A DNA stretch of 64,000 nucleotides from a phage, in the sequence record PZ445428.1; one strand, 5' to 3'. Below, piece after piece: positions 34,366 to 49,043 of this stretch (positions within the stretch are counted from its first letter, which is position 1; every line of letters starts with the position of its first letter). A program made the position numbers and the translations under genes. Under the pieces are notes generated by a model. The model ran no database searches. It saw only the letters and a list, made by a program, of their open reading frames with translations, and was not told where the DNA came from.

Positions 34366-34536
34366 ATGAAATCAGTTGTAATTATTGGTGTTAATACTCG
34401 TGGTATTCGTACTACTAAAACTGTTAAAACTGCTAAGATTTCTGATGTTACATCAAACCCTAGCAAGTTTGATTTCGCTAAAGTCTCGGCAGTTATGACT
34501 GAAAAATCTTTTAATCAAACACTGGAAGCAAAATAA
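34366..34536 (+). CDS. hypothetical small protein (56 aa, not in ORF track)
   Basis: ATG after GAGAGGAAG; reads MKSVVIIGVNTRGIRTTK...; stop overlaps next ATG. Confidence 0.4.
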   Translation: MKSVVIIGVNTRGIRTTKTVKTAKISDVTSNPSKFDFAKVSAVMTEKSFNQTLEAK

Positions 34537-34979
34537 TGGAAGAGAATATCCTAGACGTTCTGCGTAGAGCTTTACAAGCATCTAAAGTAAATGGTTCTGA
34601 TAAAGAAGTAGTGAAGAGCTACCAGACTATAATTGGCGATCTTCAGCGGGTAGATAAAGACTTTATCACTTCTGAACAATTTGTAAATTATCTGAAAGCT
34701 CAGTTAAAGAGCATTGAAGCAACTAAAGCAAAACTGCAGGGTGCTGATCTGCAAAACTATAGTCTGCAATCTGCTCAGTATGAATATGTACTTAACAGTT
34801 ATTTAGAGAAGTATCTGCCTCCGCAGATGTCCTCTACTGAAATACGCAATTACTTTGCAGAATTAGTTAAACTGAATCCAGGTATTACCAAAGGTACCCT
34901 GATGAAAGCGATTAAGGAAGAATTTTCTGGTCGTTATGATGGTAAACTTGCAGCTCAAGTTGCTGGCGAATTTAATTAA
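34536..34979 (+). CDS. GatB/YqeY-domain protein
   Basis: C-terminal YLEKYLPPQMSSTEIRNYFAELV...GTLMKAIKEEFSGRYDGKLAAQVAGE resembles the YqeY family. Confidence 0.55.
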   Translation: MEENILDVLRRALQASKVNGSDKEVVKSYQTIIGDLQRVDKDFITSEQFVNYLKAQLKSIEATKAKLQGADLQNYSLQSAQYEYVLNSYLEKYLPPQMSSTEIRNYFAELVKLNPGITKGTLMKAIKEEFSGRYDGKLAAQVAGEFN

Positions 34980-34987
34980 AAATTGAT

Positions 34988-35016
34988 TTGCTAAATGCTT
35001 CAAAAGTTGATATAAT
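34988..35016 (+). promoter_or_regulatory. sigma70 early promoter driving the ORF-free structured region
   Basis: TTGCTAaatgcttcaaaagttgaTATAAT. Confidence 0.6.
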
Positions 35017-35021
35017 AGTTA

Positions 35022-36144
35022 CATAAATTAGAGAGAACAGCGAGCCGATTACGCTGAGTGCAGAATCCCAACCGGAGCGCATTGAATAGAGTCGGTGAGT
35101 TGTACTAGGATTCCTGATTAGAGAGGTTCCAGGCACCGCAGGGTTTACTCTGTACCGCTTCCAGCTATCGATATCAGGAATGAATAGTGCGCAAAACTCG
35201 GGAGCTGTCCCGAAACCTCGTAAACTCTTCTCTCTAATTTAATTAAACGATGGATCTCAGCACGAGCCAGTCACAGTGTGAAACATGGTGCGTGACCCAG
35301 GGGTAGAAGACTAGGAGTTGGCTTGAGAAACCCATGTAACTCCTAACGCTGACCCGTCTAGGTTGCAAATCGAGACATGTGTATATCACAATGAGGTAAG
35401 TGACCATCAAATAGTGGGTAGCGTAATTTTTAGGTGAATGATGGAGGTCTAACGACTGAGGGCATCATCTCGGGATTACCAGCCACGAAATAGTGGGGTG
35501 TCGAACTGACTTATGTAATAACACTGCCGTCCTAGTATAAACGGTAATATCAAGCCGTAACTGGTGGAAGATGTAGGTTCGAATCCTACGGTCGGTAAGA
35601 ATTAGATAACTCGGGCTTATACCGGATAAGCATTCGCTGCGGAAGTACATACTATGACGGTTCAGGAGGTACGCCGCCTGATCAGTATGAGGTTAGAATC
35701 GAAACCGCTAAACCACGAGGAAACCTGACGGCCTCAGCCAAACTCGGAAACTCAGGATCGCTGCTTAGTGCGTGCCCTGTTTTAACCTAGAGACTAAGCA
35801 CTCCAGCTTCGCATCGAAAATCGGAGGTGCGATTCTACTAGACCGCGTAACTATGAGAGGGGGAAATGCTCACATGAAACATGTGACTAATGGTGCACAA
35901 TAGAACAGGTAAACGCGATAAGTCCTGTTGAGTAGCAGCAGAAGGCTGGGAGTCATGACCTGAGCCTAACCGAGTTCTCCACATAGGGAGGACATAACCA
36001 CGAAGTCACCTTGACTTAAACTGGAAGATATTGTCTGACGGCAGGGCTGAAGAGCTTAATCTGAGGGGGCTGACCCTACCTACCGCCGGGTATCTTTAAG
36101 AGCTTTTGAGAGAGTTCTTAAAAATACCTAACAAAATCTATTTT
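35022..36144 (+). ncRNA. candidate structured stable RNA(s) or tRNA-like elements, about 1.1 kb ORF-free
   Basis: No ORF on either strand apart from one spurious minus ORF; higher GC; many hairpins (TAGGAGTT...AACTCCTA; AGAGAGAA...TTCTCTCT about 200 nt apart); T-arm-like GTAGGTTCGAATCCTAC at 35573-35589. Confidence 0.4.
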
Positions 36145-36219
36145 CGGGGTGTAGTCTAAGGGATAGGCAGGAGTCTTCTAAATTCCTTTATGCAGGTTCG
36201 AATCCTGTCACCTCGGCCA
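36145..36219 (+). tRNA. tRNA-Arg (anticodon TCT)
   Basis: Hand-folded cloverleaf: acceptor CGGGGTG/CACCTCG, anticodon loop CTTCTAA, T-arm GCAGG-TTCGAAT-CCTGT, encoded CCA. Confidence 0.8.
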
Positions 36220-36245
36220 ATTTTATTAACTAGTAGGAAAATAAA

Positions 36246-36446
36246 ATGAAAACACGATATATAGTAAAAGCAGTAGGTGAACATTCTCAAGTAAATACCA
36301 CTGATGTTACAGCACTAGCGTTTGAAGTAGTCTCCGGTATAGTTATATTTCATAATGGAGATATTAAAGCACCTGAATTTGCTGTGGATTCTGGCCTGTT
36401 TATTTCTGCCACTAAAGTAACTGTAGTATCTAACTCTTCTAAATAA
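36246..36446 (+). CDS. hypothetical protein
   Basis: 66-aa ORF. Confidence 0.4.
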   Translation: MKTRYIVKAVGEHSQVNTTDVTALAFEVVSGIVIFHNGDIKAPEFAVDSGLFISATKVTVVSNSSK

Positions 36447-36457
36447 TAAGGAAATAT

Positions 36458-37402
36458 ATGTTTACTAAAAACACTAAAGAACTAACTTCTGAACAAAAAG
36501 TAATTCGTACTATTAAACGTTGGGGTGTTGGTGCTGTAGTTGGTCTTGGTGCTCTTATTCTGGCTCTCAATTCCTATACAGTTGTTCAGGACGGTACTGT
36601 AAAGACTCAGACATTCTTGGGTAAAGTTAACCCGAACCCTGTACTGCCAGGGTTTCACATTGTCAACCCATTCGCTTCTTTTGATACTTTTAGTACGAAA
36701 GATATTTCCATGAAACTGGATAAGCTTCAGGTTCCTAGCCAGGATAAGTTTAAGTCCACTGTTGATATTACTGTTATGTTGCAGTTCGATGGTGCTAAAG
36801 CTCCGATGAACCGTGTTAACGCAGGTACTCAGGATCAGGCGCTGAACAAGTATGTTGAAGAGAAGATGCTGTCTACTATCCGTGAATTTGGTAAGTCTGT
36901 ACCGAAAGCACAGGATCTGTTCGACGCTAAGATTCAGGCACAGCTGCAAACTGCAATTCAGCAGGAAGTTGAAGAATATGCTCGTCCTTATGGTTACACC
37001 GTGAAGCAAGTATTCCTTCAGGATATTACACTTCCGCCAGTAATCATGGAACAGGTTCAGAACACAAAAGTTCGTGAAGAACAAGTTAACGCCGCTAAAG
37101 CTGAACTAGCTCGTGTTGAACAAGAAGCACAGCAGAAAGTTAAGCAAGCTGAAGCAGATCGTTCTGCTCGTGAAAACATGGCAGTAGCTAACGAACGTGA
37201 CGCAGATGCTAAACTGTACGCAGCTAAGAAAGAAGCTGAAGCTAACGCCGCACTGCAACGTACCATTACCCCTGAAATGATTCGTTGGAAACAGCTGGAA
37301 GTTGAAATGCTTCGTGCTGAGAAATATCAGGGTGGTGTACCGCAGACTGTAGTTGGTACTGGTTATGATGGCCAGATGATCATGGATATGCGTAACAAGT
37401 AA
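36458..37402 (+). CDS. SPFH/band-7 (stomatin/prohibitin-like) membrane protein
   Basis: N-terminal TM segment, SPFH-like core, long C-terminal coiled coil (EQEAQQKVKQAEADR). Confidence 0.6.
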   Translation: MFTKNTKELTSEQKVIRTIKRWGVGAVVGLGALILALNSYTVVQDGTVKTQTFLGKVNPNPVLPGFHIVNPFASFDTFSTKDISMKLDKLQVPSQDKFKSTVDITVMLQFDGAKAPMNRVNAGTQDQALNKYVEEKMLSTIREFGKSVPKAQDLFDAKIQAQLQTAIQQEVEEYARPYGYTVKQVFLQDITLPPVIMEQVQNTKVREEQVNAAKAELARVEQEAQQKVKQAEADRSARENMAVANERDADAKLYAAKKEAEANAALQRTITPEMIRWKQLEVEMLRAEKYQGGVPQTVVGTGYDGQMIMDMRNK

Positions 37403-37427
37403 TAGACATACGTAACATCTGAAGTAA

Positions 37428-37460
37428 GCCCGCGTTTCCTCCGAGAGCGCGGGCTTTTCT
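37428..37460 (+). terminator. intrinsic terminator after the SPFH gene
   Basis: GCCCGCG...CGCGGGC hairpin followed by TTTTCT. Confidence 0.65.
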
Positions 37461-37474
37461 GTATTTAAGGCAAA

Positions 37475-37510
37475 AGAAAAGCCCCTTACCTTTCGGCAGG
37501 GGCTTTGTTT
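37475..37510. terminator. bidirectional terminator at convergent junction
   Basis: GCCCCT...AGGGGC hairpin flanked by T-runs on both strands. Confidence 0.55.
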
Positions 37511-37720
37511 TTGGTTTAGAACCATACTCTCTTGTTACAGCAACCACCCATACGGGAGACCAATCTTGACTGAAAATCTACTCTAGGGGGCAGGATAAGA
37601 GTAGGCTTAAAGGCAAACGGATTGAACACCGGTATTTGCGTAAACATTGCTGGAGAGCAACAACGTGCTACAGGCATTGGGCAGCATGATGTAGGCTTTC
37701 TACAACACATTTAAACCTCC

Positions 37721-42075: not shown

Positions 42076-42169
42076 GGAAGATTAACCCTAAAGGTAAGGG
42101 AGTTGTTTGCTAAACAACCAGTAGCTGTGGAGACACGGTGTATCAGTTCGAGTCTGGTATCTTCCTCCA
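42076..42169 (+). tRNA. tRNA-Ser (GCT)
   Basis: Acceptor GGAAGAT/ATCTTCC, anticodon loop TTGCTAA, long variable arm, T-arm ATCAG-TTCGAGT-CTGGT, CCA. Confidence 0.8.
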
Positions 42170-42176
42170 AATTCAT

Positions 42177-42254
42177 GGTTCCTTAGCTCAATCAGGTTAG
42201 AGCATTCCCCTCATAAGGGACAGGTTCTCGGATCATACCCGAGAGGAGCCACCA
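42177..42254 (+). tRNA. tRNA with CAT anticodon (Met or Ile2)
   Basis: Acceptor GGTTCCT/AGGAGCC, D-arm GCTC...GAGC, loop CTCATAA, atypical T-loop ATCATAC, CCA. Confidence 0.65.
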
Positions 42255-42271
42255 ATTAACTAGGAGACTTT

Positions 42272-42460
42272 ATGTCTAAATTCCAAGAACTAATGAGAGA
42301 GTTGGGTGAGCATCGCTGCAAGGATTGTTATGGGTCTGGAGAGCAAAACGATGCAGAGCCTGGAGATACTCGATTCAATAAGTGGACTTGTCCTACCTGC
42401 GAAGGTACAGGTATCAACCCTCTTTACACTATTTCTATCTACGTGGGAATTGCTAAATAA
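42272..42460 (+). CDS. zinc-ribbon small protein
   Basis: CKDCYGSG...CPTCEGTG; 62 aa. Confidence 0.45.
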   Translation: MSKFQELMRELGEHRCKDCYGSGEQNDAEPGDTRFNKWTCPTCEGTGINPLYTISIYVGIAK

Positions 42461-42798
42461 TGGATATTTTTACTACTCCAGCAGTCAACCTTTTAGGTGT
42501 AGGTCTGTTCCAAGCTACCATCTATCGTACTGATGATTCTACTGATGTGGTAATGTTCATCGTACCTGAATTCTTCCTAGAAAAGTTCTTTGAAGAGTTT
42601 GAGCAGTTCCGTGAAGAACATAATGCTCACTCCGATATGGAAGATCTAGCAGCTATGTTCCCTGCAGTTTACGGCTATATCTTTGAAAGTAATGGTCTGG
42701 ATCTTAATAAATCTGAGCTGGTCGAACTTAATTGGGGAATTAGTTTTGAAGTTGGCTCTCCATTCCCCCGATACTTCCAGGGTTTAGAGATCCGCTAA
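42460..42798 (+). CDS. hypothetical protein
   Basis: 112-aa ORF. Confidence 0.5.
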   Translation: MDIFTTPAVNLLGVGLFQATIYRTDDSTDVVMFIVPEFFLEKFFEEFEQFREEHNAHSDMEDLAAMFPAVYGYIFESNGLDLNKSELVELNWGISFEVGSPFPRYFQGLEIR

Positions 42799-42806
42799 GA
42801 TTACAT

Positions 42807-42883
42807 GGGGGTGTAATCGAATTGGCATAGGTACTGGACTTAAAATTCAGGTTTTGTGGGTTCGAATCCCACCACCCCTACCA
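42807..42883 (+). tRNA. tRNA with TAA anticodon (Leu by anticodon, short variable arm)
   Basis: Acceptor GGGGGTG/CACCCCT, loop CTTAAAA, T-arm GTGGG-TTCGAAT-CCCAC, CCA. Confidence 0.6.
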
Positions 42884-42900
42884 AATAAAAGGAAACTGAT

Positions 42901-43068
42901 ATGTATCAGAGACCGTCACCACCAGCTCGAAGATCAAGAGAAACTCTTTTGATGGAGTTGGCGAAAAACTTCAAGGCTAAACTTGAAGACGATAATTTTA
43001 CTACAGATGAAGATATTGACTTCATTTGCAAACTATTAAAAATGAAATTGGAGAAAAAACATGGCTAA
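42901..43068 (+). CDS. hypothetical small protein (55 aa, not in ORF track)
   Basis: ATG after AAAGGAAA; MYQRPSPPARRSRETLL... Confidence 0.35.
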   Translation: MYQRPSPPARRSRETLLMELAKNFKAKLEDDNFTTDEDIDFICKLLKMKLEKKHG

Positions 43069-43267
43069 TCCAGAAGTAGTTACACAGCGTTTGCTGATTA
43101 AAGGTGTAGTAGCTGAAGCAGGTCTTACCGAAGCTGTTGCAGATTTTCAGGCACAGTTCACAGCTATTCTCACCCAAGCTAAAGAAACTGGTGCGGAGGA
43201 GTATGCTGCTGCAACTCTAGCGCTCACGTTAGCTGGACTTGATCTGGCAGAAGAAGCCGGAGTTTAA
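43061..43267 (+). CDS. hypothetical protein
   Basis: 68-aa ORF. Confidence 0.4.
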   Translation: MANPEVVTQRLLIKGVVAEAGLTEAVADFQAQFTAILTQAKETGAEEYAAATLALTLAGLDLAEEAGV

Positions 43268-43297
43268 CTCCTCCAAGCAGAAATTTTAAAAATGTAC

Positions 43298-43327
43298 TTG
43301 CTTTTTACTTAAGATTTCTGCTATAAT
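43298..43327 (+). promoter_or_regulatory. sigma70 early promoter
   Basis: TTGCTT-18 nt-TATAAT. Confidence 0.55.
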
Positions 43328-43356
43328 AGTTATATAAATTGATGAGAGGAATCAGA

Positions 43357-43632
43357 ATGTCAAAACGTGTTACAGCAACTGGTATTGAAAGCTCAGTATG
43401 TAAATCCTGGGGTGGTTGGGAAGGTGAGATTGAATGGCTTTATTTCTACAATGTAGAACTTCTGCCTGAAATTAAAGCCCACTGTATCGAAGCTGGTATG
43501 TCTCCTGATGCTAAAGCAGATATCGAAATTACTATGACTAAACTAGAAGGTCGTGTAATTACTGTTAGTGATGAAGGTGAAGAGGTCTTCGAACTTCCAT
43601 TCACCTTGAAAGTCACTCCTTCGTTTGATTAA
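43357..43632 (+). CDS. hypothetical protein
   Basis: Start moved to ATG after GAGAGGAATCAGA. Confidence 0.5.
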   Translation: MSKRVTATGIESSVCKSWGGWEGEIEWLYFYNVELLPEIKAHCIEAGMSPDAKADIEITMTKLEGRVITVSDEGEEVFELPFTLKVTPSFD

Positions 43633-43640
43633 CTGATACA

Positions 43641-43679
43641 GCACTGAGCAAGTTCTTTAAAATTTGACTTGCTCAGTGC
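43641..43679 (+). terminator. 12-bp perfect inverted repeat overlapping the next promoter -35
   Basis: GCACTGAGCAAG...CTTGCTCAGTGC; the 3' arm contains the TTGCTC -35 element. Confidence 0.45.
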
Positions 43680-43698
43680 CTTAAAACTTGATATAATA
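43669..43698 (+). promoter_or_regulatory. sigma70 promoter driving a small RNA and tRNAs
   Basis: TTGCTCagtgccttaaaacttgaTATAAT. Confidence 0.55.
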
Positions 43699-43721
43699 GT
43701 TATCTAATTTGGAAAACATAT

Positions 43722-43820
43722 CTGAATGAGAAGTAACTAAGCGAGTTGCTTTGAGGGGTAAGGTCAGGATAGCCTGAAATATTCCACCTTGAGTTTAACC
43801 GACTTACTTTTCATTCAAAT
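43722..43820 (+). ncRNA. candidate about 100-nt structured RNA upstream of tRNA-Tyr
   Basis: Terminal stem GAATGAGAAGTAA...TTACTTTTCATTC enclosing about 75 nt; no ORF. Confidence 0.3.
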
Positions 43821-43902
43821 ATGTTGGATTAGTATCGTAGAGGTAGCGAAGCAGACTGTAAATCTGCCGACTCGGAAGGGTCTCGGGTGGTTCGACTCCA
43901 TC
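43812..43902 (+). tRNA. tRNA-Tyr (GTA)
   Basis: Acceptor GTTGGAT/ATCCAAC, anticodon arm GCAGA-CTGTAAA-TCTGC, long variable arm, CCA. Confidence 0.75.
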
Positions 43903-43921
43903 ATCCAACACCAAATTTAAT

Positions 43922-43996
43922 GCACCTATCGTCTATCGGTTAGGACATCAGGTTTTCAACCTGAGAAGCTCGGTTCGATTCCGTGTGGGTGTACCA
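43922..43996 (+). tRNA. tRNA-Glu (TTC)
   Basis: Acceptor GCACCTA/TGGGTGT, anticodon arm TCAGG-TTTTCAA-CCTGA, CCA. Confidence 0.7.
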
Positions 43997-44003
43997 AATT
44001 AAT

Positions 44004-44080
44004 GTTCTGCTAGACAAACAGGTAAAGTCCCTACCCTTTCAAGGTAGGGTTTGCGGGTTCGATCCCCGCACAGAACGCCA
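44004..44080 (+). tRNA. tRNA with TTC anticodon (second Glu-type)
   Basis: Anticodon arm CTACC-CTTTCAA-GGTAG, T-arm GCGGG-TTCGATC-CCCGC, CCA. Confidence 0.6.
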
Positions 44081-44088
44081 TATTCTGC

Positions 44089-44165
44089 ATTCCTAGAGTG
44101 TTACTGGACAGCATGTCGGTCTCCAAAACCGTACGGTCTAGGTTCGAGTCCTAGTAGGTTTGCCA
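44089..44165 (+). tRNA. tRNA-Trp (CCA), acceptor stem with U-U mismatches
   Basis: Anticodon loop CTCCAAA, T-arm CTAGG-TTCGAGT-CCTAG, CCA. Confidence 0.55.
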
Positions 44166-44171
44166 ATATTT

Positions 44172-44246
44172 GCACCTTTAGCTGAGATGGATTAGCGCTT
44201 GCCTGAAGAGCTTGAGAGGTTGGATCGTTACCAACGGGGTGCACCA
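44172..44246 (+). tRNA. tRNA-Phe (GAA)
   Basis: Acceptor GCACCTT/GGGGTGC, D-arm GCTG...TAGC, loop CTGAAGA, CCA. Confidence 0.6.
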
Positions 44247-44263
44247 ATTTGAAGGAGATGCTG

Positions 44264-44536
44264 ATGCATCCTGAAAACTTCTTTATATACTGTACTAGTC
44301 CTTTGCTTAAACGCCGGATTAATAAAGTATATCACTACAGAGCTAGTCAACAGCCTTATATTTATGATTCTAGTGGAGATCACATTCCACTTGAGCAACT
44401 AGGGACTGATTATATGGTTTTGAAGCACTTTAATGAGGCAAAGATCTCAAGCGTTCATAACCGACAAAACTCTAAAACGTGGTGGTATAAGAAGCGTAAG
44501 AAAGGCATCAAATTTCTGAAAAATGTAGTTGCTTAA
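44264..44536 (+). CDS. hypothetical protein
   Basis: Start moved to ATG 6 nt after AAGGAG; the track start is TTG. Confidence 0.45.
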   Translation: MHPENFFIYCTSPLLKRRINKVYHYRASQQPYIYDSSGDHIPLEQLGTDYMVLKHFNEAKISSVHNRQNSKTWWYKKRKKGIKFLKNVVA

Positions 44537-44585
44537 ATCCTTAAAGTTCTGTATAATTATTACATAAATTGAACTGGAGAACTAG

Positions 44586-44774
44586 ATGAAAGCACCTAAA
44601 CCGAAATTAGTTAAGTTCGACTGCTGTGACACTGAAATCTTATTTACTAAGTTTGGTGAATTTAAGATGTGTGAATGTGGAACATGTGGTTACGATCATG
44701 GTGATGGATATTATTGCAGAACCCTCGGGCCTTCTGAACTAATCCACTTCTCATGGCCGGAAAGTAAAGAATAA
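44586..44774 (+). CDS. Cys-rich small protein
   Basis: FDCCDTE...CECGTCGYDHGDGYYC; 62 aa. Confidence 0.45.
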   Translation: MKAPKPKLVKFDCCDTEILFTKFGEFKMCECGTCGYDHGDGYYCRTLGPSELIHFSWPESKE

Positions 44775-44776
44775 TA

Positions 44777-44852
44777 CGACCGTTGGCTGAATGGCTTAGG
44801 CGGGGGCCTGCAAAACCTCCTTATGTGAGTTCGAATCTCATGCGGTCGTCCA
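44777..44852 (+). tRNA. tRNA-Cys (GCA)
   Basis: Acceptor CGACCGT/GCGGTCG, loop CTGCAAA, T-arm GTGAG-TTCGAAT-CTCAT, CCA. Confidence 0.65.
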
Positions 44853-44859
44853 AATTTAT

Positions 44860-44942
44860 GGGTCGTTAGCCAAGCGGTTTGGCGGTGGACTGTTAATCCA
44901 TGTCGAAAGACAACGTAGGTTCGAATCCTGCACGGCCCGCCA
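44860..44942 (+). tRNA. tRNA with GTT anticodon (Asn) and extended variable arm
   Basis: Anticodon arm GTGGA-CTGTTAA-TCCAT, extra arm GTCGAAAGAC, T-arm GTAGG-TTCGAAT-CCTGC, CCA. Confidence 0.6.
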
Positions 44943-44970
44943 TTTTTCACTAAAAACTGAGGAAATAGAT

Positions 44971-45156
44971 ATGACAACTCATGCAATTGCTCGACTAGAA
45001 GCTGATCGCGATAGTATTAAGAACAATATTAAAGTTCGTGATCAAATCATTAAGGTTTTAAAGGCAGAACTGCTTGAAGAACTTCAACATCAAGTAGATC
45101 GTCGTGAGTCTTTAAAAGAAGTCGAGGAAGCTCTGTCTAAACTCAAAGCTGAATAA
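44971..45156 (+). CDS. hypothetical coiled-coil protein
   Basis: 61-aa ORF. Confidence 0.4.
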   Translation: MTTHAIARLEADRDSIKNNIKVRDQIIKVLKAELLEELQHQVDRRESLKEVEEALSKLKAE

Positions 45157-45165
45157 ACAAATTAT

Positions 45166-45242
45166 GCGATCGGGGCTGGCTTGGTAATGGTACTCCCCTG
45201 TCACGGGAGAGAATGTGGGTTCGAATCCCATCGGTCGCGCCA
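45166..45242 (+). tRNA. tRNA-Asp (GTC)
   Basis: Acceptor GCGATCG/CGGTCGC, anticodon arm CTCCC-CTGTCAC-GGGAG, CCA. Confidence 0.8.
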
Positions 45243-45248
45243 AATTAT

Positions 45249-45324
45249 ACATCCATAGCTCAATGGTTAGAGCTACCGCCTCTTAAGCGGAGGGTTCTAG
45301 GTTCAAGTCCTAGTGGGTGTACCA
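45249..45324 (+). tRNA. tRNA-Lys (CTT)
   Basis: Acceptor ACATCCA/TGGGTGT, D-arm GCTC...GAGC, loop CTCTTAA, T-arm CTAGG-TTCAAGT-CCTAG, CCA. Confidence 0.65.
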
Positions 45325-45329
45325 AATAC

Positions 45330-45668
45330 TGGGGTCTTAGCTAATCGGTTAAGCGTCATGGATAGCGGTGAATTCCGGCCTATGAAGGGAGTAACACGTA
45401 GTCTCCCAGACTCCACCAAATTTCAGTGCAGAACACGGAGCTAGCAATTCGGAAGTGCTGACGCGCGATAAGCTGCCTATGTACTTGCAAAGCGGACGTG
45501 TCCTAGACTCGGACTCTTGCACTGAAACCAATTAAACATTCTAGCGTGGTGGAGAGGGGACACCAGCTTGCCGAGGGTAGAAGCTCGTTCGATTCGAGTG
45601 AAAGAATGGTTCTCGTAAATCCGCACAAGTGATAGTAGGTTCAAGTCCTGCCTAGATTGACTTATTAT
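45330..45668 (+). ncRNA. cluster of tRNA-like / structured RNA elements, non-canonical
   Basis: Acceptor-like stems with encoded CCA (GGGGTCT...AGACTCCACCA; TTCAGTG...CACTGAAACCA) and T-arm-like motifs, but no canonical cloverleaf by hand folding. Confidence 0.35.
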
Positions 45669-45742
45669 GCGTCCATAGTTAAAAGGTATAATTTCTGGTT
45701 GCCAACCAGATGTTGAGAGTTCGATTCTCTCTGGCCGCACCA
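45669..45742 (+). tRNA. tRNA-Gly (GCC)
   Basis: Anticodon arm TCTGG-TTGCCAA-CCAGA, T-arm GAGAG-TTCGATT-CTCTC, CCA. Confidence 0.75.
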
Positions 45743-46050
45743 AATTTAGGTTTATGCTTCCTAGAGAACGTACTCCTAAATAAACAAGGCGATGAGTTTC
45801 CGGCCGGTTCTAGTCGCTGAAAATCCTCCCGACCAGGTAGGTGTAGGTAAACGAAAGTTTACTTATTAAGTAAGTCCGACACATCGGCGGGTGTGTTCTA
45901 GTATTTAAAGAAGGTCTCGCAAACTTTCTCGCTAGCATGAGTTCATAGCTCGGTGACTTACCTAATAAGTAAATTTATTAAAAATGTAATTGCTATTTAG
46001 CTTAATTCTCTGTATAATATATTTTATAAAGTGATGAGAAGGAAAGCAAA

Positions 46051-46209
46051 GTGAAATTAAAAATTGCAGATGTACTTATGTGTACTTGGGTAATTCCAAT
46101 CATAATTGTTGGTTTTAACGCAGATATACTTTCCACAGCGTGGAAGATTGTAGGGCTAAGTACAGGGTTCACAATGCTAGGGTTAAGCATGTTGTGGACG
46201 AAAAACTAA
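46051..46209 (+). CDS. hypothetical small hydrophobic peptide (GTG start)
   Basis: 52 codons after promoter and GAGAAGGAAAG; not in ORF track. Confidence 0.3.
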   Translation: MKLKIADVLMCTWVIPIIIVGFNADILSTAWKIVGLSTGFTMLGLSMLWTKN

Positions 46210-46213
46210 TATT

Positions 46214-46290
46214 CTCCGATTAGCTCAATTGGCTAGAGTACACCGTTTGGGGTGGTGGGGTTGAAGGTTCGAGTCCTTCATTGGAGACCA
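46214..46290 (+). tRNA. tRNA-Pro (TGG)
   Basis: Acceptor CTCCGAT/ATTGGAG, anticodon arm CACCG-TTTGGGG-TGGTG, T-arm GAAGG-TTCGAGT-CCTTC, CCA. Confidence 0.8.
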
Positions 46291-46305
46291 AATAAGAGGT
46301 TAATA

Positions 46306-46458
46306 ATGCGTCATTTAAATAGGCAAAAAACAAAAGCACCTAAAAGGTTTAAGACTTGGTGCGGTTGTGATAGAGAACTCGTTTCTCTAGGAGAGAAATG
46401 TTCTGTTTGTGGTGTACGCTTTGTTAAGTTCAAACAAAGATTTAAATTTGCGAGTTAG
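46306..46458 (+). CDS. zinc-ribbon small protein
   Basis: 50 aa, CGCDRE...CSVCG; its 3' end overlaps the 5' end of the next tRNA. Confidence 0.35.
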   Translation: MRHLNRQKTKAPKRFKTWCGCDRELVSLGEKCSVCGVRFVKFKQRFKFAS

Positions 46459-46526
46459 ATCTCTGGTAGAGATCACTAGTCTCATAAGCTAGTAAGAGGT
46501 CGGTTCGATTCCGACACTCGCATCCA
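46449..46526 (+). tRNA. tRNA with CAT anticodon (Met or Ile2)
   Basis: Acceptor TGCGAGT/ACTCGCA, D-arm GATC...GATC, anticodon arm CTAGT-CTCATAA-GCTAG, CCA. Confidence 0.75.
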
Positions 46527-46537
46527 AAAAGTATTAA

Positions 46538-46615
46538 GGGTTGCTAGCTCAACTGGTTTAGAGCACTGGTCTTTTAAACCATAGGTTACAGGTTCGAGTC
46601 CTGTGCAACCCACCA
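46538..46615 (+). tRNA. tRNA-Lys (TTT)
   Basis: Acceptor GGGTTGC/GCAACCC, loop CTTTTAA, T-arm ACAGG-TTCGAGT-CCTGT, CCA. Confidence 0.75.
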
Positions 46616-46619
46616 AATT

Positions 46620-46693
46620 GCTCGGTTAGTTTAATGGGAGAACCCCGTCTTTACACGGCGGTTGCGATAGTTCGATTCTATCACCGAGTACCA
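46620..46693 (+). tRNA. tRNA-Val (TAC)
   Basis: Anticodon arm CCGTC-TTTACAC-GGCGG, T-arm GATAG-TTCGATT-CTATC, CCA. Confidence 0.7.
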
Positions 46694-46717
46694 CTTAACT
46701 AAAATAAGGAATTGCAA

Positions 46718-47077
46718 ATGCAATTATCATCTAAAGTTCAAGGTTTCTTCACACATGCAACAGCAGAATTTGCTATTAGCAAGGGTTGGGACTTTGAGCA
46801 AGAACTTTCTGAGTTCTATAAAGATATAGATATGAATACACCATACATGGCCTTAGCTTCTGGACAAGAGTTCTCAGAAGGTGATCTTTTCAAGGCAAGT
46901 CAAGGCGAGGTAACGCCTGGTTTTGCCGCTTTTTGGAGTGGCTTCACAATTAAAGAAGAAGCTCCAGATGATGATGTATTTATGCAAAGCATGCACTCTG
47001 GGAGTTCTGATATGTTATTCGTTAAAGATGTACGACATATCCAAGAAGTGGTAAAAACGTATTTGCAAAATGCTTAA
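46718..47077 (+). CDS. hypothetical protein
   Basis: Start moved to ATG 7 nt after TAAGGA. Confidence 0.5.
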   Translation: MQLSSKVQGFFTHATAEFAISKGWDFEQELSEFYKDIDMNTPYMALASGQEFSEGDLFKASQGEVTPGFAAFWSGFTIKEEAPDDDVFMQSMHSGSSDMLFVKDVRHIQEVVKTYLQNA

Positions 47078-47331
47078 TTTCTTGTTATAATATTTATATA
47101 AATTGATGGGGAGAAATCCTCATCAAAGTTCACTAAGGTATTAGCTCGACCTAGGACTGGCTGCCACCAAGCACGATCCCTACGACTCGGGAGAAGTTCT
47201 AGATTAGTCCACTAGATTCAGCGGCAACTGAATAGTGTATCGGGTTTGTGAAGAGCGGGTATCCAAGCCTGGCTAATGGCACTGGGTATTACGCACACCG
47301 AGCTAATAGCCTTAGTAAACTTGAAGAATTT

Positions 47332-47406
47332 GGGCGAATAGTGTCAGCGGGAGCACACCAGACTTGCAATCTGGTAGGGAGGGTTCGAGTCCCTCTTTGT
47401 CCACCA
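47332..47406 (+). tRNA. tRNA-Ala (TGC)
   Basis: Acceptor GGGCGAA/TTTGTCC, anticodon arm CCAGA-CTTGCAA-TCTGG, T-arm GAGGG-TTCGAGT-CCCTC, CCA. Confidence 0.75.
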
Positions 47407-47412
47407 AATTTT

Positions 47413-47488
47413 GGGGTCATAGGTTATTTGGTTAAACTTACTGCCTTGCAAGCAGTAGAACTCAGTTCAATTCTGAGTGACTCCACCA
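47413..47488 (+). tRNA. tRNA with TGC anticodon (second Ala-type)
   Basis: Acceptor GGGGTCA/TGACTCC, anticodon arm ACTGC-CTTGCAA-GCAGT, T-arm CTCAG-TTCAATT-CTGAG, CCA. Confidence 0.6.
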
Positions 47489-47507
47489 AACAAATTAAGG
47501 AAATAAT

Positions 47508-47726
47508 ATGGTATTCTTAGCAGCCTCTGTAGTTCTTGCATCTTTAGCGTTAGCTATCTATTTTAGAACTGCTAAAGATTTATCTAAAGAAAAGAAAACT
47601 TTCTTTACTGATTACTCTTGGGGTGCTCCATACGCTATCAATTCTATCAGTCTAGAAGCTATGTTGATAATGGTATTCAGTGGTATAGGTTCTATCGTTG
47701 CTGGATTACTTTTTATTTCTAACTAA
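47508..47726 (+). CDS. hypothetical small membrane protein
   Basis: 72 aa, two hydrophobic segments; AAGGAAA upstream. Confidence 0.45.
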   Translation: MVFLAASVVLASLALAIYFRTAKDLSKEKKTFFTDYSWGAPYAINSISLEAMLIMVFSGIGSIVAGLLFISN

Positions 47727-47733
47727 ACAAAAT

Positions 47734-47814
47734 GGGGATGTGGCGAAATTGGCAGACGCGCTAGATTTAGGTTCTAGTCTTCGGGTGTGGGTTCGAGTCC
47801 CTCCATCCCTACCA
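47734..47814 (+). tRNA. tRNA-Leu (TAG)
   Basis: Acceptor GGGGATG/CATCCCT, anticodon arm CTAGA-TTTAGGT-TCTAG, extended variable arm, CCA. Confidence 0.7.
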
Positions 47815-47834
47815 TTTTAAAATAGGATTAATTA

Positions 47835-47999
47835 ATGTTAAAGATGCCAGTAAAACATATTTGGTTAGCTAGAAATAGGGCTACTAATGAATTTGTCTTT
47901 ATTGATACAGGAATGACATATGATCAACGAATATATGATCTTCTGTATTCCGTGTCTGCTGAAGAAGTACACAAATTAATTCTAAAAGATGCAACATAA
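47835..47999 (+). CDS. hypothetical small protein (54 aa, not in ORF track)
   Basis: ATG after TAGGA; the minus-strand track ORFs here overlap tRNAs and are rejected. Confidence 0.3.
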   Translation: MLKMPVKHIWLARNRATNEFVFIDTGMTYDQRIYDLLYSVSAEEVHKLILKDAT

Positions 48000-48001
48000 T
48001 T

Positions 48002-48094
48002 GGAAGAGCAAATCGACTTGGTGACGAAAACCGCTTGGAAAGTGGCTGACTTGTGAAAGCAGGCTTGAGAGTTCGAATCTCTCTTCTTCCGCCA
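48002..48094 (+). tRNA. class II tRNA, probably Ser (GGA)
   Basis: Acceptor GGAAGAG/TTCTTCC, candidate loop TTGGAAA, long variable arm, T-arm GAGAG-TTCGAAT-CTCTC, CCA; anticodon arm is imperfect. Confidence 0.5.
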
Positions 48095-48101
48095 AACAAT
48101 T

Positions 48102-48191
48102 GGAAGTACGGGCGTAGTGGTATGCAACTAGTCTTGAAAACTAGCCCGCTGTAGCGATATGGTGATGGTTCGACTCCATGTGCTTCCGCCA
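48102..48191 (+). tRNA. tRNA-Ser (TGA)
   Basis: Acceptor GGAAGTA/TGCTTCC, anticodon arm CTAGT-CTTGAAA-ACTAG, long variable arm, CCA. Confidence 0.7.
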
Positions 48192-48196
48192 AATCT

Positions 48197-48327
48197 TGGA
48201 ATATGCCGGAATTGGTAGACGGGACTGCCGAATAGGTTTACTAGGAACATCCACTCCTAGAAATATACCTTAAAAGCGGTTGAGTTAAATGGTCTAACTC
48301 GTGAAGGTTCAAGTCCTTCTATTCCTT
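48197..48327 (+). ncRNA. tRNA-like element, about 131 nt, non-canonical
   Basis: Perfect T-arm GAAGG-TTCAAGT-CCTTC and acceptor-like TGGAATA/TATTCCT, but no CCA and no canonical anticodon arm. Confidence 0.35.
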
Positions 48328-48434
48328 GATACATCAATGGCTCAAAGAGTAACGGTGCACCTTTCTAGAGAATTTCCTGGGCGAGAATCCAGGTGTAATC
48401 AACTAGTCGTTAGTGTGATGAGTTTCGGAGAGCC

Positions 48435-48581
48435 GCCACAATTGAAGATCATTGTCTGTTTGAGTCTACCATTTAGGGTCGTTACTTGTAGCGCCTATCT
48501 GCTAGGTCTAATCACTAGGTAAAGGCATGCAAGCTTCTAGTGTAGAGAGTTCGCTACTCCTCGATGGTTTTCAATTGTGGC
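48435..48581 (+). ncRNA. candidate structured RNA closed by a 12-bp long-range stem
   Basis: GCCACAATTGAA (48435-48446) pairs perfectly with TTCAATTGTGGC (48570-48581); the 3' arm overlaps the tRNA-His 5' end. Confidence 0.3.
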
Positions 48582-48653
48582 TATATCATAATTGGTTAAT
48601 GATCCTGATTGTGAATCAGGCCTATGTGGATTCGAGTTCCACTAGCCACCCCA
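48577..48653 (+). tRNA. tRNA-His (GTG)
   Basis: Acceptor GTGGCTA/TAGCCAC, D-arm TCAT...ATGA, anticodon arm CCTGA-TTGTGAA-TCAGG, CCA. Confidence 0.8.
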
Positions 48654-48659
48654 AATATT

Positions 48660-48734
48660 GCGTCCTTATTTCAACGGAAAGAATGTAAAGCTACGAACTT
48701 TACGATCGGGGTTCGATTCCCTGAGGATGCACCA
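48660..48734 (+). tRNA. tRNA-Arg (ACG)
   Basis: Acceptor GCGTCCT/AGGATGC, anticodon arm TAAAG-CTACGAA-CTTTA, T-arm CGGGG-TTCGATT-CCCTG, CCA. Confidence 0.8.
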
Positions 48735-48758
48735 ATTAACTTAAACAGGAAAATAATA

Positions 48759-48959
48759 ATGGCTGATTTCTGTAAAGAATGCTCTATCGATATGTGGGGC
48801 AAAGATACACAAGATCTTTCTGGTCTTATCACTGAAGCTGAAGTTAAAGAAGGCTATGGTGCTGTAGTAATCTGCGAAGGTTGTGGTATTATCCGTGTTG
48901 ATCATGAAGGCAAACGCCTTGAAGAACCTGAGCCAATCGCAACGGTTCCTGTAGAGTAA
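48759..48959 (+). CDS. zinc-ribbon small protein
   Basis: MADFCKECSID...CEGCG; start moved to ATG after AGGAAA. Confidence 0.45.
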   Translation: MADFCKECSIDMWGKDTQDLSGLITEAEVKEGYGAVVICEGCGIIRVDHEGKRLEEPEPIATVPVE

Positions 48960-48967
48960 CAAATTAT

Positions 48968-49043
48968 TGGGATGTAGATCAATTGGCAGATCGTCGGCCT
49001 CTGACTCCGAAGGTTCCTGGTTCGATCCCAGGCATCCCAGCCA
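48968..49043 (+). tRNA. tRNA-Gln (CTG)
   Basis: Acceptor TGGGATG/CATCCCA, D-arm GATC...GATC, loop CTCTGAC, T-arm CCTGG-TTCGATC-CCAGG, CCA. Confidence 0.7.

What the first reader, a model, noticed from the sequence alone, without database searches (positions are those of the whole stretch)
35022..36144. 1.1-kb promoter-driven ORF-free region of structured RNA ahead of tRNA-Arg
A strong early promoter is followed by about 1.1 kb without any credible ORF, with raised GC, numerous perfect hairpins and long-range complementary segments, and at least one T-arm-like motif (GTAGGTTCGAATCCTAC). It ends in a canonical tRNA-Arg. This looks like one or more stable non-coding RNAs or degenerate tRNA-like elements of unknown function.
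Basis: seen in the sequence. Interest (0 to 1): 0.7.

Follow-up and report, generated by a model that had tools for sequence, protein, structure and literature searches.

The report
Large structured RNA gene in T5-like phages
The 1.1-kb gap in front of tRNA-Arg in this T5-like coliphage is a real gene for a large, elaborately folded non-coding RNA. It has been labelled only "RNAX, function unknown" in two old database entries, and it resembles the giant phage RNAs GOLLD and ROOL in kind but not in sequence.

Summary
The window is Escherichia phage TrudiGerster (Bas27, Epseptimavirus). A near-consensus early promoter (34988-35016) is followed by about 1.12 kb with no ORF longer than 61 aa, raised GC, and a canonical tRNA-Arg(UCU).

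The stretch is one multi-domain RNA gene. Homologues of 640-1,292 nt occur in about 525 T5-like phage genomes (Escherichia, Salmonella, Klebsiella, Yersinia), and diverged ones in Pectobacterium phage My1 and Proteus phage Stubb.

Helices are kept through compensatory changes. In the core, 93.7% of cells are paired, 24 of 37 pairs covary, and slid controls give 30-45%. Supported elements are a pseudoknot, domain-closing helices, a long-range helix, and a 3' rod with a three-way junction.

A tRNA-shaped module sits on a 12-pair stalk. It keeps the acceptor, D and T arms but has no real anticodon arm and no CCA. Some lineages replace it with a plain hairpin.

Rfam 15 has no family for the RNA. 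GenBank AJ604531 and AJ604530 call the homologue "RNAX, stable RNA with unknown functions", and I found no paper on it.

Most likely it is a stable RNA released from an early tRNA-operon precursor. Its function is unknown. A GOLLD/ROOL-like self-assembling scaffold is the most interesting reading that remains open.

The parts
34988..35016 (+). Early sigma-70 promoter, TTGCTA-17-TATAAT with a TG extension. The predicted start is about 35023.
   Evidence: 10 of 12 matches, best in the region. It is conserved in all relatives. GenBank AJ604531 annotates the homologous site as 'promoter P16-17'.
35023..36144 (+). Body of the large non-coding RNA (homologue of 'RNAX'), about 1.12 kb.
   Evidence: No ORF longer than 61 aa. 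Homologous to the rnaX misc_RNA of AJ604531 and AJ604530. No Rfam family apart from the internal tRNA-like hit.
35025..35240 (+). Domain 1, closed by helix P1 (35025-35037 with 35228-35240). The inside is variable. It is reduced to a bare hairpin in L011/L022 and replaced by an HNH endonuclease gene in phage H8.
   Evidence: Fold z = -4.73.
35038..35096 (+). Pseudoknot. Hairpin CAGCG (35038-42) pairs with CGCUG (35052-56). Its loop GCCGAUU (35044-50) pairs with AGUCGGU (35090-96).
   Evidence: 97.9% of cells paired against 36-52% when slid. Each stem has a compensatory pair in My1 and Stubb (G-C to A-U; C-G to A-U).
35248..35486 (+). Domain 2, closed by GAUGG (35249-53) with CCAUC (35404-08), plus an extra hairpin insert at 35414-35486. 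The whole domain is absent from Tequintavirus-type RNAs.
   Evidence: The closing helix covaries: CGAUGG/CCAUCG, UGGUGG/CCACCA, AUGGUGG/CCGCCAU.
35491..35505 (+). 5' strand of the long-range helix (UAGUGG) followed by the invariant junction sequence GGUGUCGAA.
   Evidence: GUGG/CCAC becomes ACGG/CCGU in My1 and UGGG/CCCA in Stubb.
35506..35614 (+). 12-pair stalk (35506-35519 with 35601-35614) that carries the tRNA-like module. The conserved internal loop is AACACU / AAGA.
   Evidence: 99.8-100% of cells paired, and 5-7 of 12 pairs have changes on both sides.
35526..35597 (+). tRNA-like module. The acceptor stem (with a U.U at 5-68), D arm with GG, and T arm (35573-35589) are kept. The anticodon arm is only 3 pairs with a 6-nt loop, and there is no CCA.
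   Evidence: The arm is replaced by longer hairpins in KPN4-type phages. The whole module is replaced by a plain hairpin in SH9-type phages and Stubb.
35614..35631 (+). Hairpin of the core three-way junction, with loop ACCGG.
   Evidence: 3 of 6 pairs are compensatory.
35632..35924 (+). Variable central module. It includes the hairpin UUCGCAUCGAAAAUCGGAGGUGCGA (35808-35832), which is shared with Klebsiella and Yersinia phages. Tequintavirus has a different module here.
   Evidence: UCGCA/UGCGA becomes UCACA/UGUGA in Klebsiella phages.
35925..35993 (+). Three hairpins: Ha 35925-41, Hb 35943-67 and Hc 35974-93. The Hb stem covaries fully and its loop carries the invariant GAGUCAUGACC (palindrome GUCAUGAC, 35952-59).
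   Evidence: Hb stems seen: AGGCU/AGCCU, AGACU/AGUCU, GUGAC/GUCAC, ACUAAAC/GUUUAGU, and UCUAGAC/GUCUAGA in My1.
35993..36030 (+). Invariant CAUAACCAC (3' strand of the long-range helix, 35998-36001), then hairpin AGUCA-CCU-UGACU (36004-16), then UAAACUGGAAG.
36033..36091 (+). 3' rod (36033-45 with 36079-91) ending in a three-way junction: hairpin 36046-55, linker UUAAU 36056-60, hairpin 36064-77.
   Evidence: single-sequence folds give the same topology for the Epseptimavirus, Tequintavirus, Klebsiella and My1 versions, although the sequences are unalignable.
36095..36122 (+). Terminal 12-pair hairpin. Its 3' strand AGAGUUCUUAAA is invariant.
   Evidence: 100% paired; the 5' strand varies only through G.U. 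It is present in My1.
36145..36219 (+). tRNA-Arg(UCU) with encoded CCA. Its 5' processing would define the 3' end of the large RNA.
   Evidence: In Tequintavirus types it starts about 10 nt after the terminal hairpin.
37426..37456 (+). First terminator-like site downstream. This implies that the RNA, tRNA-Arg, a 66-aa ORF and an SPFH-domain gene form one transcription unit.
   Evidence: AJ604531 annotates the homologous site as 'bidirectional transcription terminator ter1'.
34536..34979 (+). Upstream YqeY-like gene (relative of the GatB tail domain). It keeps its position upstream of the RNA in three Demerecviridae lineages.

Best explanation
Window 35023-36144 is the gene for a large (about 1.1 kb), multi-domain, structured non-coding RNA of T5-like phages. 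It is the homologue of the 'RNAX' annotated in phage 5 and BF23.

Proposed course of events:
1. Host RNA polymerase starts at a strong early promoter and transcribes the RNA together with tRNA-Arg(UCU). This follows from the sequence; transcription itself is inferred.
2. RNase P cleavage at the 5' end of tRNA-Arg releases the RNA (inferred). RNase P may also cut at the internal tRNA-like module, in which case the 12-pair stalk would hold the two halves together (inferred).
3. Both ends are buried in helices: P1 starts at about +3, and a 12-pair hairpin closes the 3' end. That would make the RNA long-lived. The helices are shown; the stability is inferred.
4. It folds into separately closed domains around invariant junctions and loops. 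The folding is shown by covariation.
5. It then acts in trans as an RNA scaffold during early infection. My preferred version is that it self-associates through its conserved self-complementary loops, like GOLLD and ROOL, and presents a tRNA-elbow mimic to tRNA-handling factors. This step is speculative.

My probabilities: real structured RNA gene, about 0.9. Released as a stable RNA from the tRNA precursor, about 0.6. Self-assembling scaffold, about 0.2-0.25.
For: Distribution and size:
- Homologues occur in 524-527 phage genomes.
- Lengths among the 44 distinct sequences first collected run from 640 to 1,292 nt.
- Diverged copies lie at the same place in Pectobacterium phage My1 (89.6 bits) and Proteus phage Stubb (62.7 bits).

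Covariation:
- Core, 34 distinct sequences: 93.7% of cells paired, 24 of 37 pairs changed on both sides, 0 of 500 shuffles reaching the observed value on all five measures, slid controls 30-45%.
- The same structure on an unfitted MAFFT alignment: 92.2% paired, 15 compensatory pairs.
- Pseudoknot plus P1: 97.9% paired against 36-52% when slid.
- 3' hairpins: 90.8% paired, 9 compensatory pairs.
- Long-range helix: GUGG/CCAC, ACGG/CCGU, UGGG/CCCA.
- Same 3' junction topology in unalignable versions.

Strand and level: about 110 of the 1,227 paired cells are G.U. These would be A.C on the other strand, so the fold belongs to + strand RNA and not to DNA.

Transcription unit and coding:
- Promoter present, and no terminator before 37426.
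- No conserved ORF.
- GenBank calls the homologue a stable RNA.

Parallels with GOLLD and ROOL: both are phage-encoded and lie near tRNA islands, tRNAs sometimes sit in the GOLLD linker, GOLLD has a conserved 3' region and a variable 5' region, and both assemble through kissing loops (PMC12286853).

Self-complementary loops:
- The palindromic loop GUCAUGAC is invariant in all enterobacterial-phage versions examined and in Stubb.
- A second hairpin loop changes sequence but stays self-complementary in 4 of 6 lineages.
Against: - I could reach no expression, end-mapping or stability data. The 'stable RNA' label is a depositor's note with no paper behind it that I could find.
- Most sequences are close relatives, so covariation cell counts overstate the number of independent events. 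The My1 and Stubb support rests on two lineages. Alignment A5 is fitted to the model.
- Several conserved helices (the AGUCA hairpin, the terminal hairpin) never covary.
- The tRNA-like module is dispensable, since SH9-type phages and Stubb lack it. This weakens any mechanism centred on tRNA mimicry.
- The palindrome is broken in My1 (GUCAUGCC).
- There is no sequence or model similarity to GOLLD or ROOL, and nothing tests oligomerisation.
- The RNA is not separated from the downstream genes by a terminator, so a cis-acting leader role is not excluded.
Confidence: 0.6

Rival explanations
1. It is a cis-acting structured leader. On this reading the 1.1 kb is a 5' untranslated or processing scaffold of the tRNA-Arg / 66-aa ORF / SPFH operon. 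It would control processing, stability or translation of what follows and would not act in trans.
For: There is one promoter and no terminator-like site until 37426-37456, after the SPFH-domain gene. AJ604531 places terminator ter1 at the same position. tRNA-Arg follows the RNA directly in most lineages.
Against: - The downstream partner is not constant. Klebsiella phages have two ORFs and a different spacing before the next tRNA. Several phages have an ORF inserted between the RNA and tRNA-Arg.
- tRNA excision would cut the RNA off from the mRNA.
- The size, the independent domain closure and the sealed ends are far beyond known bacterial leaders.
- No riboswitch or T-box model matches.
Confidence: 0.15
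2. It is an anti-defence decoy. On this reading the RNA, through its tRNA-shaped module and its place at the head of the tRNA island, soaks up or misleads host factors that attack or sense tRNAs. Candidates are anticodon nucleases, retron or PARIS-type systems, or host RNases.
For: It sits in the tRNA island. The tRNA elbow nucleotides are conserved (D-loop GG and T-loop invariant). Papers cited in PMC10644984 and PMC13250531 report that T5 tRNAs counter retron Eco7 and PARIS. Early expression is what a counter-defence would need.
Against: - The anticodon arm, which is the target of anticodon nucleases, is the least conserved part.
- The whole tRNA-like module is missing in SH9-type phages and Stubb, while the rest of the RNA is kept.
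- Nothing links the other 1 kb to any defence system.
Confidence: 0.15
3. It is debris: decayed tRNA genes and relics of homing-endonuclease traffic in a recombination-prone region, with no function of its own.
For: The region is mosaic, with modules swapped, duplicated or replaced. Endonuclease genes lie in or beside it. One tRNA-like element scores only 26-38 bits.
Against: - Compensatory changes keep helices intact across genera and subfamilies.
- Invariant junction sequences persist from E. coli phages to My1 and Stubb.
- About 525 genomes retain it.
- Only one tRNA-like element is present, and it is embedded in a covarying helix.
Confidence: 0.03
4. It is a DNA-level element (replication origin, nick site, or packaging or recombination signal), or it encodes small proteins such as the annotated bas27_0080-0082.
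For: Inverted repeats and a palindrome are present. GenBank annotates three minus-strand ORFs of 54-61 aa in TrudiGerster.
Against: - Pairing relies heavily on G.U, which is strand-specific and meaningless for duplex DNA.
- The ORFs are not conserved in position, frame or length among relatives.
- Indels of any length are tolerated at helix tips.
Confidence: 0.03

Closest known systems
RNAX (gene rnaX) annotated in GenBank AJ604531 (Salmonella phage 5) and AJ604530 / NC_042564 (phage BF23)
   Same: It is homologous sequence in three blocks of 81-89% identity. It occupies the same position: after the early promoter 'P16-17' and directly before tRNA-Arg(AGA), with the same downstream genes and terminator.
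   Different: The Tequintavirus version is 785 nt. It lacks domain 2 and has different central and 3'-junction modules. The record says only 'stable RNA with unknown functions'. No structure, family or paper was found.
GOLLD RNA (RF01998) and ROOL RNA (RF03087)
   Same: Both are phage- or prophage-encoded and lie next to tRNA islands. Both are more than 500 nt, with many helices and pseudoknots and unknown function. GOLLD has a conserved 3' part and a variable 5' part, and sometimes carries a tRNA inside (PMC12286853). Here the RNA has a variable 5' part, a better conserved 3' part, an internal tRNA-like module, and conserved self-complementary loops.
   Different: There is no covariance-model match even at E up to 10, and the secondary structure is unrelated. 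The hosts are enterobacteria and the phages are strictly virulent, with no match in 5,426 E. coli genomes. Oligomerisation is untested.
tRNA-like modules in larger RNAs: bacterial Y RNA YrlA, the tmRNA tRNA-like domain, MALAT1 mascRNA (from my own knowledge)
   Same: In each, acceptor, T and D arms form a tRNA elbow without a decoding anticodon loop, and the module is embedded in or attached to a larger RNA. Such modules are handled by tRNA enzymes such as RNase P.
   Different: No Rfam match to YrlA, Y RNA or tmRNA. Here the module caps a long internal stalk and is optional among lineages.
Small stable RNAs of phage tRNA clusters, such as T4 species 1 and 2 RNAs (rnaC, rnaD) (from my own knowledge)
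   Same: They are co-transcribed and co-processed with phage tRNAs, are non-coding, and their function has been unknown for decades.
   Different: They are about 100-140 nt. This RNA is roughly ten times larger and has several domains.

Membership tests
tRNA (RF00005), for the internal element 35526-35597 | Scores above the Rfam gathering cut-off of 29 bits. | tested here: inconclusive
   36.2 bits in the window, 35.5 in phage 5 and 38.3 in My1. Only 26.6 and 26.4 bits in the Klebsiella and Yersinia versions.
tRNA (RF00005), for the internal element 35526-35597 | Anticodon arm of 5 pairs with a 7-nt loop. | tested here: not met
   It has 3-4 pairs with the 6-nt loop GUAACU. cmscan skipped the arm as a local end. 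The arm is replaced by longer hairpins or a GCGAA loop in relatives.
tRNA (RF00005), for the internal element 35526-35597 | Free 5' and 3' ends with a discriminator and CCA, either encoded or addable. | tested here: not met
   The 3' side continues as (U/A)AAGA into the stalk helix, with no CCA. By contrast, tRNA-Arg encodes CCA.
tRNA (RF00005), for the internal element 35526-35597 | Acceptor, D and T arms with the elbow nucleotides (D-loop GG, T-loop UUCRANY). | tested here: met
   These positions are invariant or nearly invariant in 27 sequences. The arms covary.
GOLLD / ROOL (Rfam RF01998, RF03087) | Match to the family covariance model. | tested here: not met
   No hit at E up to 10 in the window, or at E up to 1 in four relatives.
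GOLLD / ROOL (as a kind: giant ornate phage RNAs) | Phage-encoded, next to a tRNA island, more than 500 nt, many covarying helices with a pseudoknot. | tested here: met
   Description of the kind: PMC12286853.
GOLLD / ROOL (as a kind) | RNA-only homo-oligomeric assembly (nanocage). | not testable with these tools
   Only indirect hints are available, in the form of self-complementary conserved loops.
RNAX of phage 5 / BF23 (GenBank annotation) | Sequence homology and the same genomic position. | tested here: met
RNAX of phage 5 / BF23 (GenBank annotation) | Accumulates as a stable RNA in infected cells. | not testable with these tools
   This rests on the depositors' note only. Public RNA-seq exists for Bas33, PRJEB101990.
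tmRNA | tRNA-like domain together with a tag reading frame, as detected by ARAGORN. | tested here: not met
   ARAGORN reported no tmRNA in the window. There was no Rfam tmRNA hit either.
Group I / group II introns, riboswitches, T-box leaders | Match to any Rfam model of these classes. | tested here: not met

The most novel reading that the evidence does not exclude
RNAX may be a third, independently evolved class of giant phage RNA that assembles into an RNA-only particle, as GOLLD and ROOL do. Assembly would run through its conserved self-complementary loops (GUCAUGAC at 35952-59 and the CCGG / ACGU / AGCU / AUAU loop at 35620-26). The particle would work with the phage tRNA set, displaying a tRNA elbow and possibly bound by the neighbouring YqeY-like protein, during early takeover by T5-like phages. 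That would put this enigmatic kind of RNA into the genetically tractable T5 / E. coli K-12 system.
Probability: 0.2. Interest if true: 0.9.

Novelty: new variant of a known kind. Interest (0 to 1): 0.7.

Why it matters
Giant structured phage RNAs next to tRNA islands (GOLLD, ROOL) now have spectacular cryo-EM structures but still no known function. They occur mostly in hosts that are hard to manipulate.

This RNA is of comparable size and complexity. It sits at the head of the tRNA island of T5-like phages, which infect E. coli K-12 and belong to a widely used phage collection (BASEL). Deletions, defence-system panels, RNase P assays and cryo-EM are therefore all straightforward.

It is absent from Rfam and from the literature I could search. 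Genome annotations currently cover it with spurious small ORFs or "tRNA-OTHER / tRNA-Sec / tRNA-Ser" calls, so a curated family would correct several hundred phage records.

Tried and rejected
- Rfam at permissive thresholds, on the window and on four relatives. Only tRNA hits appeared. No GOLLD, ROOL, intron, tmRNA, Y RNA or riboswitch match.
- Literature searches for RNAX, T5 stable RNAs, and Demerecviridae ncRNA or structured RNA. Nothing on this RNA.
- IMG/VR and metagenome scans with the core motif. These returned only T5-like phages (30 and 11 loci), plus 6 chance matches inside coding regions, so they added no deeper diversity.
- Aeromonas phages AhSzq-1 and PAc, within 12 kb either side of the endolysin. 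No core match.
- A single MAFFT/RNAalifold run over the whole RNA. It was too mosaic and recovered only part of the structure, and it proposed a GUGGGG/CUCCAC pairing that I replaced with GUGG/CCAC after looking at Klebsiella phages, My1 and Stubb.
- Column-wise covariation of the 3' junction across lineages. The MAFFT registers differ, so I compared the topologies of single-sequence folds instead.
- A sarcin-ricin-like reading of the terminal loop (UACGAGAG). Rejected because the loop varies: UGAG, UAUA, UUCG, CACG.
- A possible stalk around tRNA-Leu (R1 hit at 42769-42917). No convincing flanking pairing.
- Host origin. No match in 5,426 E. coli genomes.
- Nucleotide identity of the RNA against its flanking genes. 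This was uninformative with global alignments.
- The 169-aa ORF inserted in relatives. No Pfam or PHROG family.
Full report
**Identity of the window and check of the observation.**
The interval is identical to Escherichia phage TrudiGerster (Bas27, MZ501108.1), a T5-like Epseptimavirus, at record positions 67460-68730.
- A promoter, TTGCTA-17-TATAAT with a TG extension, at 34988-35016. It was the best promoter-like site in 34400-37600.
- About 1.12 kb with no ORF longer than 61 aa on either strand.
- GC of 0.46-0.49, against 0.32-0.40 in the flanks.
- A 22-nt long-range inverted repeat.
- The T-arm motif at 35573-35589, inside an element that ARAGORN and Rfam score as tRNA-like.
- A canonical tRNA-Arg(UCU) with encoded CCA at 36145-36219.

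Single-sequence folding is more stable than shuffled controls. For 35022-35244, z = -4.73 with 0 of 200 shuffles as stable. For 35921-36128, z = -2.10 with 5 of 200.

**It was already flagged, but only as a label.**
Two GenBank entries from one laboratory cover the tRNA gene regions of Salmonella phage 5 (AJ604531) and BF23 (AJ604530 / NC_042564). Both annotate the homologous stretch as misc_RNA rnaX, "RNAX, stable RNA with unknown functions". It is 785 nt long and lies between "promoter P16-17" and tRNA-Arg(AGA).

I found no paper describing it in seven full-text searches. The 2023 BF23 genome paper does not mention it.

Rfam 15 has no family for it. At E up to 10 in the window, and E up to 1 in four relatives, only the internal tRNA-like element and genuine tRNAs match. 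Other genome records leave the interval blank. Alternatively they fill it with small hypothetical ORFs, or call the internal element tRNA-OTHER, tRNA-Sec or tRNA-Ser.

**Distribution.**
BLASTN finds the RNA in 524-527 of 50,697 phage records. These are Salmonella, Escherichia, Klebsiella, Shigella, Citrobacter and Yersinia phages.
- The 44 distinct full-length versions first collected range from 640 to 1,292 nt.
- A weak hit to the terminal hairpin led to Pectobacterium phage My1 (subfamily Mccorquodalevirinae). There a 980-nt ORF-free stretch lies in the same place: endolysin, a YqeY-like gene, a small ORF, the RNA, an ORF, then tRNA-Arg.
- A covariance model of the core (R1) recovers My1 at 89.6 bits and Proteus phage Stubb (Novosibvirus) at 62.7 bits, again just upstream of tRNA-Arg.
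- It finds nothing within 12 kb either side of the endolysin gene of two Aeromonas phages.
- A motif scan of IMG/VR and of 241 million metagenome records returned only T5-like phages plus six chance hits.
- There is no match in 5,426 complete E. coli genomes. The RNA is therefore a trait of virulent Demerecviridae, not of hosts or prophages.

**Architecture.**
The RNA is built from separately closed domains, and relatives differ mainly by swapping or resizing what sits at helix tips.

*Domain 1 (35025-35240).* It is closed by the 13-pair helix P1.
- Inside is a pseudoknot. Hairpin CAGCG/CGCUG has the loop GCCGAUU, which pairs with AGUCGGU 40 nt downstream.
- On an alignment that includes My1 and Stubb, P1 plus the pseudoknot are 97.9% paired, against 36-52% when the partners are slid. 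Each pseudoknot stem has a compensatory pair.
- In some Tequintaviruses the whole domain shrinks to a bare hairpin that keeps P1 (L011, L022). In phage H8 it is replaced by an HNH endonuclease gene.

*Domain 2 (35248-35486).* It has its own covarying closing helix (CGAUGG/CCAUCG, UGGUGG/CCACCA, AUGGUGG/CCGCCAU). It is absent from Tequintavirus-type RNAs.

*Central domain.* It is closed by a long-range helix, GUGG (35493-96) with CCAC (35998-36001). This helix becomes ACGG/CCGU in My1 and UGGG/CCCA in Stubb.

*Core of the central domain.* The core is a three-way junction with invariant joining sequences (GGUGUCGAA, AACACU, AAGA, GAUAACU).
- It carries a 12-pair stalk and a hairpin.
- On a plain MAFFT alignment of 27 sequences the structure is 92.2% paired, with 15 pairs changed on both sides and 0 of 500 shuffles as good. 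Slid controls give 34-42%.
- On the model-guided alignment of 34 distinct sequences, including My1 and Stubb, it is 93.7% paired, with 24 of 37 pairs compensatory. Slid controls give 30-45%. That alignment is fitted to the model, which favours it.

*3' third.* It holds four hairpins, a rod ending in a three-way junction with the invariant linker UUAAU, and a terminal 12-pair hairpin.
- The hairpins are 90.8% paired, with nine compensatory pairs.
- The junction cannot be aligned between lineages, yet most of the nine single-sequence folds give the same topology, including Epseptimavirus, Tequintavirus, Klebsiella and My1 versions.

About 110 of the 1,227 paired cells in the core are G.U. The fold is therefore specific to + strand RNA, not a property of duplex DNA.

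**The tRNA-like module.**
The element at 35526-35597 sits on top of the stalk.
- It keeps a 7-pair acceptor stem (with a conserved U.U at 5-68), U8, the D arm with the GG of the D loop, and a canonical T arm. All of these covary or are invariant.
- Its "anticodon arm" is 3-4 pairs with the 6-nt loop GUAACU. This arm is a longer hairpin in KPN4-type Klebsiella phages and a GCGAA-loop hairpin in the Yersinia phage.
- There is no CCA. The 3' side runs straight into the stalk.
- It reaches the Rfam tRNA cut-off in some lineages (35.5-38.3 bits) and not in others (26.4-26.6 bits).
- In SH9-type Salmonella phages and in Stubb the whole module is replaced by a plain hairpin, while the junction around it is unchanged.

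It is thus a tRNA-elbow mimic at an optional helix tip, not a decoding tRNA and not the conserved heart of the RNA.

**What it is not.**
- No ORF is conserved in frame, place or length. The three minus-strand CDS annotated in TrudiGerster are very probably over-annotation.
- It is not a run of dead tRNA genes. There is only one tRNA-like element, and it lies inside a covarying helix.
- It is not an intron, tmRNA, Y RNA, riboswitch or T-box by any Rfam model.

**How it probably works.**
What the sequence shows directly:
- A T5-type early promoter.
- No terminator-like site until 37426-37456, so the RNA, tRNA-Arg, a 66-aa ORF and an SPFH-domain gene form one transcription unit.
- A 5' end that enters helix P1 at about +3.
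- A 3' end closed by a 12-pair hairpin that lies 10-22 nt before tRNA-Arg.

What I infer: RNase P cleavage at tRNA-Arg frees the RNA, and the sealed ends make it long-lived. That would agree with the depositors' word "stable". The internal module has U at -1 and a 12-pair acceptor/T stack, so RNase P might also cut there. The stalk would then hold the two halves together.

The function is not known. I commit, at about 0.2-0.25, to a GOLLD/ROOL-like role as a self-associating RNA scaffold linked to the phage tRNA set. The reasons are:
- GOLLD and ROOL are phage RNAs next to tRNA islands. GOLLD has a conserved 3' region and a variable 5' region, and sometimes carries tRNAs in its linker. Both assemble through kissing loops (PMC12286853).
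- RNAX has the same genomic habit and layout.
- One hairpin has a fully covarying stem but an invariant loop carrying the 8-nt palindrome GUCAUGAC.
- A second loop changes sequence but stays self-complementary in four of six lineages.

Against this: the palindrome is broken in My1, the sample is small, and nothing here tests assembly. A cis-acting leader and an anti-defence decoy remain live rivals.

**Context worth recording.**
- A YqeY-like gene (a relative of the GatB tail domain) keeps its place just upstream of the RNA in TrudiGerster, My1 (40% identity) and Stubb (28%). It is not there in Klebsiella phages. General synteny could explain this.
- Endonuclease-type genes sit in or beside the RNA gene: HNH in H8, T5orf172/MUG113 in My1, and an unclassified 169-aa ORF in several Epseptimaviruses.
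- Modules are exchanged between lineages. This fits homing-endonuclease-driven mosaicism around a conserved RNA.

**Verdict.**
The locus carries a twenty-year-old database label, but the RNA has never been characterised and belongs to no curated family.

It is best described as a new variant of the kind represented by GOLLD and ROOL. What sets it apart is an internal pseudoknot, a tRNA mimic on a stalk, and a home in a classic E. coli phage group.

The main weaknesses are the lack of any expression data in reach and the limited number of independent lineages behind the covariation.

Noticed in passing
L008:3988-4470 (phage H8); L085:3038-3583 (My1); L002:2664-3173 (HMD-P2), also oselot L003:2424-2933; window 36123-36144: Endonuclease-type ORFs sit in or beside the RNA gene. 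An HNH_3 gene replaces domain 1 in H8. A T5orf172/MUG113 gene (My1) or an unclassified 169-aa ORF lies between the terminal hairpin and tRNA-Arg. TrudiGerster has only a 22-nt spacer there.
   Followed up: partly
window 35614-35631 (loop 35620-35626) and 35952-35959: Two hairpin loops look like homodimeric kissing loops. GUCAUGAC is invariant in every lineage except My1 (GUCAUGCC). The other loop changes sequence but stays self-complementary (CCGG, ACGU/AUGU, UAGCUA, AUAUAU) in 4 of 6 lineages.
   Followed up: partly
window 36111-36122: The 3' strand of the terminal hairpin, AGAGUUCUUAAA, is invariant from E. coli phages to Pectobacterium phage My1, while its 5' partner varies through G.U pairs. 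This suggests an extra sequence-specific role, such as a processing signal or a homing-endonuclease target.
   Followed up: no
L078, L072, L063 (metagenome contigs of T5-like phages): Modules of the RNA are exchanged between lineages. L078 is Tequintavirus-type with an Epseptimavirus-type 3' junction, and L072 has a Klebsiella-type junction. In L063 the AGUCACCUUGACUUAAACUGGAA motif is duplicated around an 87-nt insert.
   Followed up: partly
window 34972-35136, 35243-35410, 35465-35650 (minus strand): GenBank CDS bas27_0080, 0081 and 0082 (54-61 aa) lie inside the RNA gene on the opposite strand and are not conserved as ORFs in relatives. They are probably over-annotation.
   Followed up: yes
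window 34536-34979; L085:1339-1788; L086:13224-13652: A YqeY-like (GatB tail-domain-like) gene stays just upstream of the RNA in three Demerecviridae lineages (40% and 28% identity). It is absent at that place in Klebsiella Sugarlandvirus. This may be a functional link or plain synteny.
   Followed up: partly
L086:14440-14500 versus 14531-14646 (Proteus phage Stubb): In Stubb the hairpin with the AAGUCAUGAC loop lies upstream of the core junction, whereas in all other lineages it lies downstream. The terminal hairpin is also missing. The RNA is rearranged as well as shortened.
   Followed up: no
window 42076-50449: Twenty-seven further tRNA genes follow, interspersed with small ORFs. Together with the two elements in the finding's region, ARAGORN in the window. 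The RNA and tRNA-Arg sit about 6 kb ahead of this island.
   Followed up: no
L022 and L070, about 690 nt upstream of the RNA promoter: The promoter of the preceding DUF7616 / YqeY operon starts its transcript with the same CAUAAAUUA as the RNA. The 5' strand of P1 therefore partly reuses the common initial transcribed sequence of T5 early promoters.
   Followed up: no
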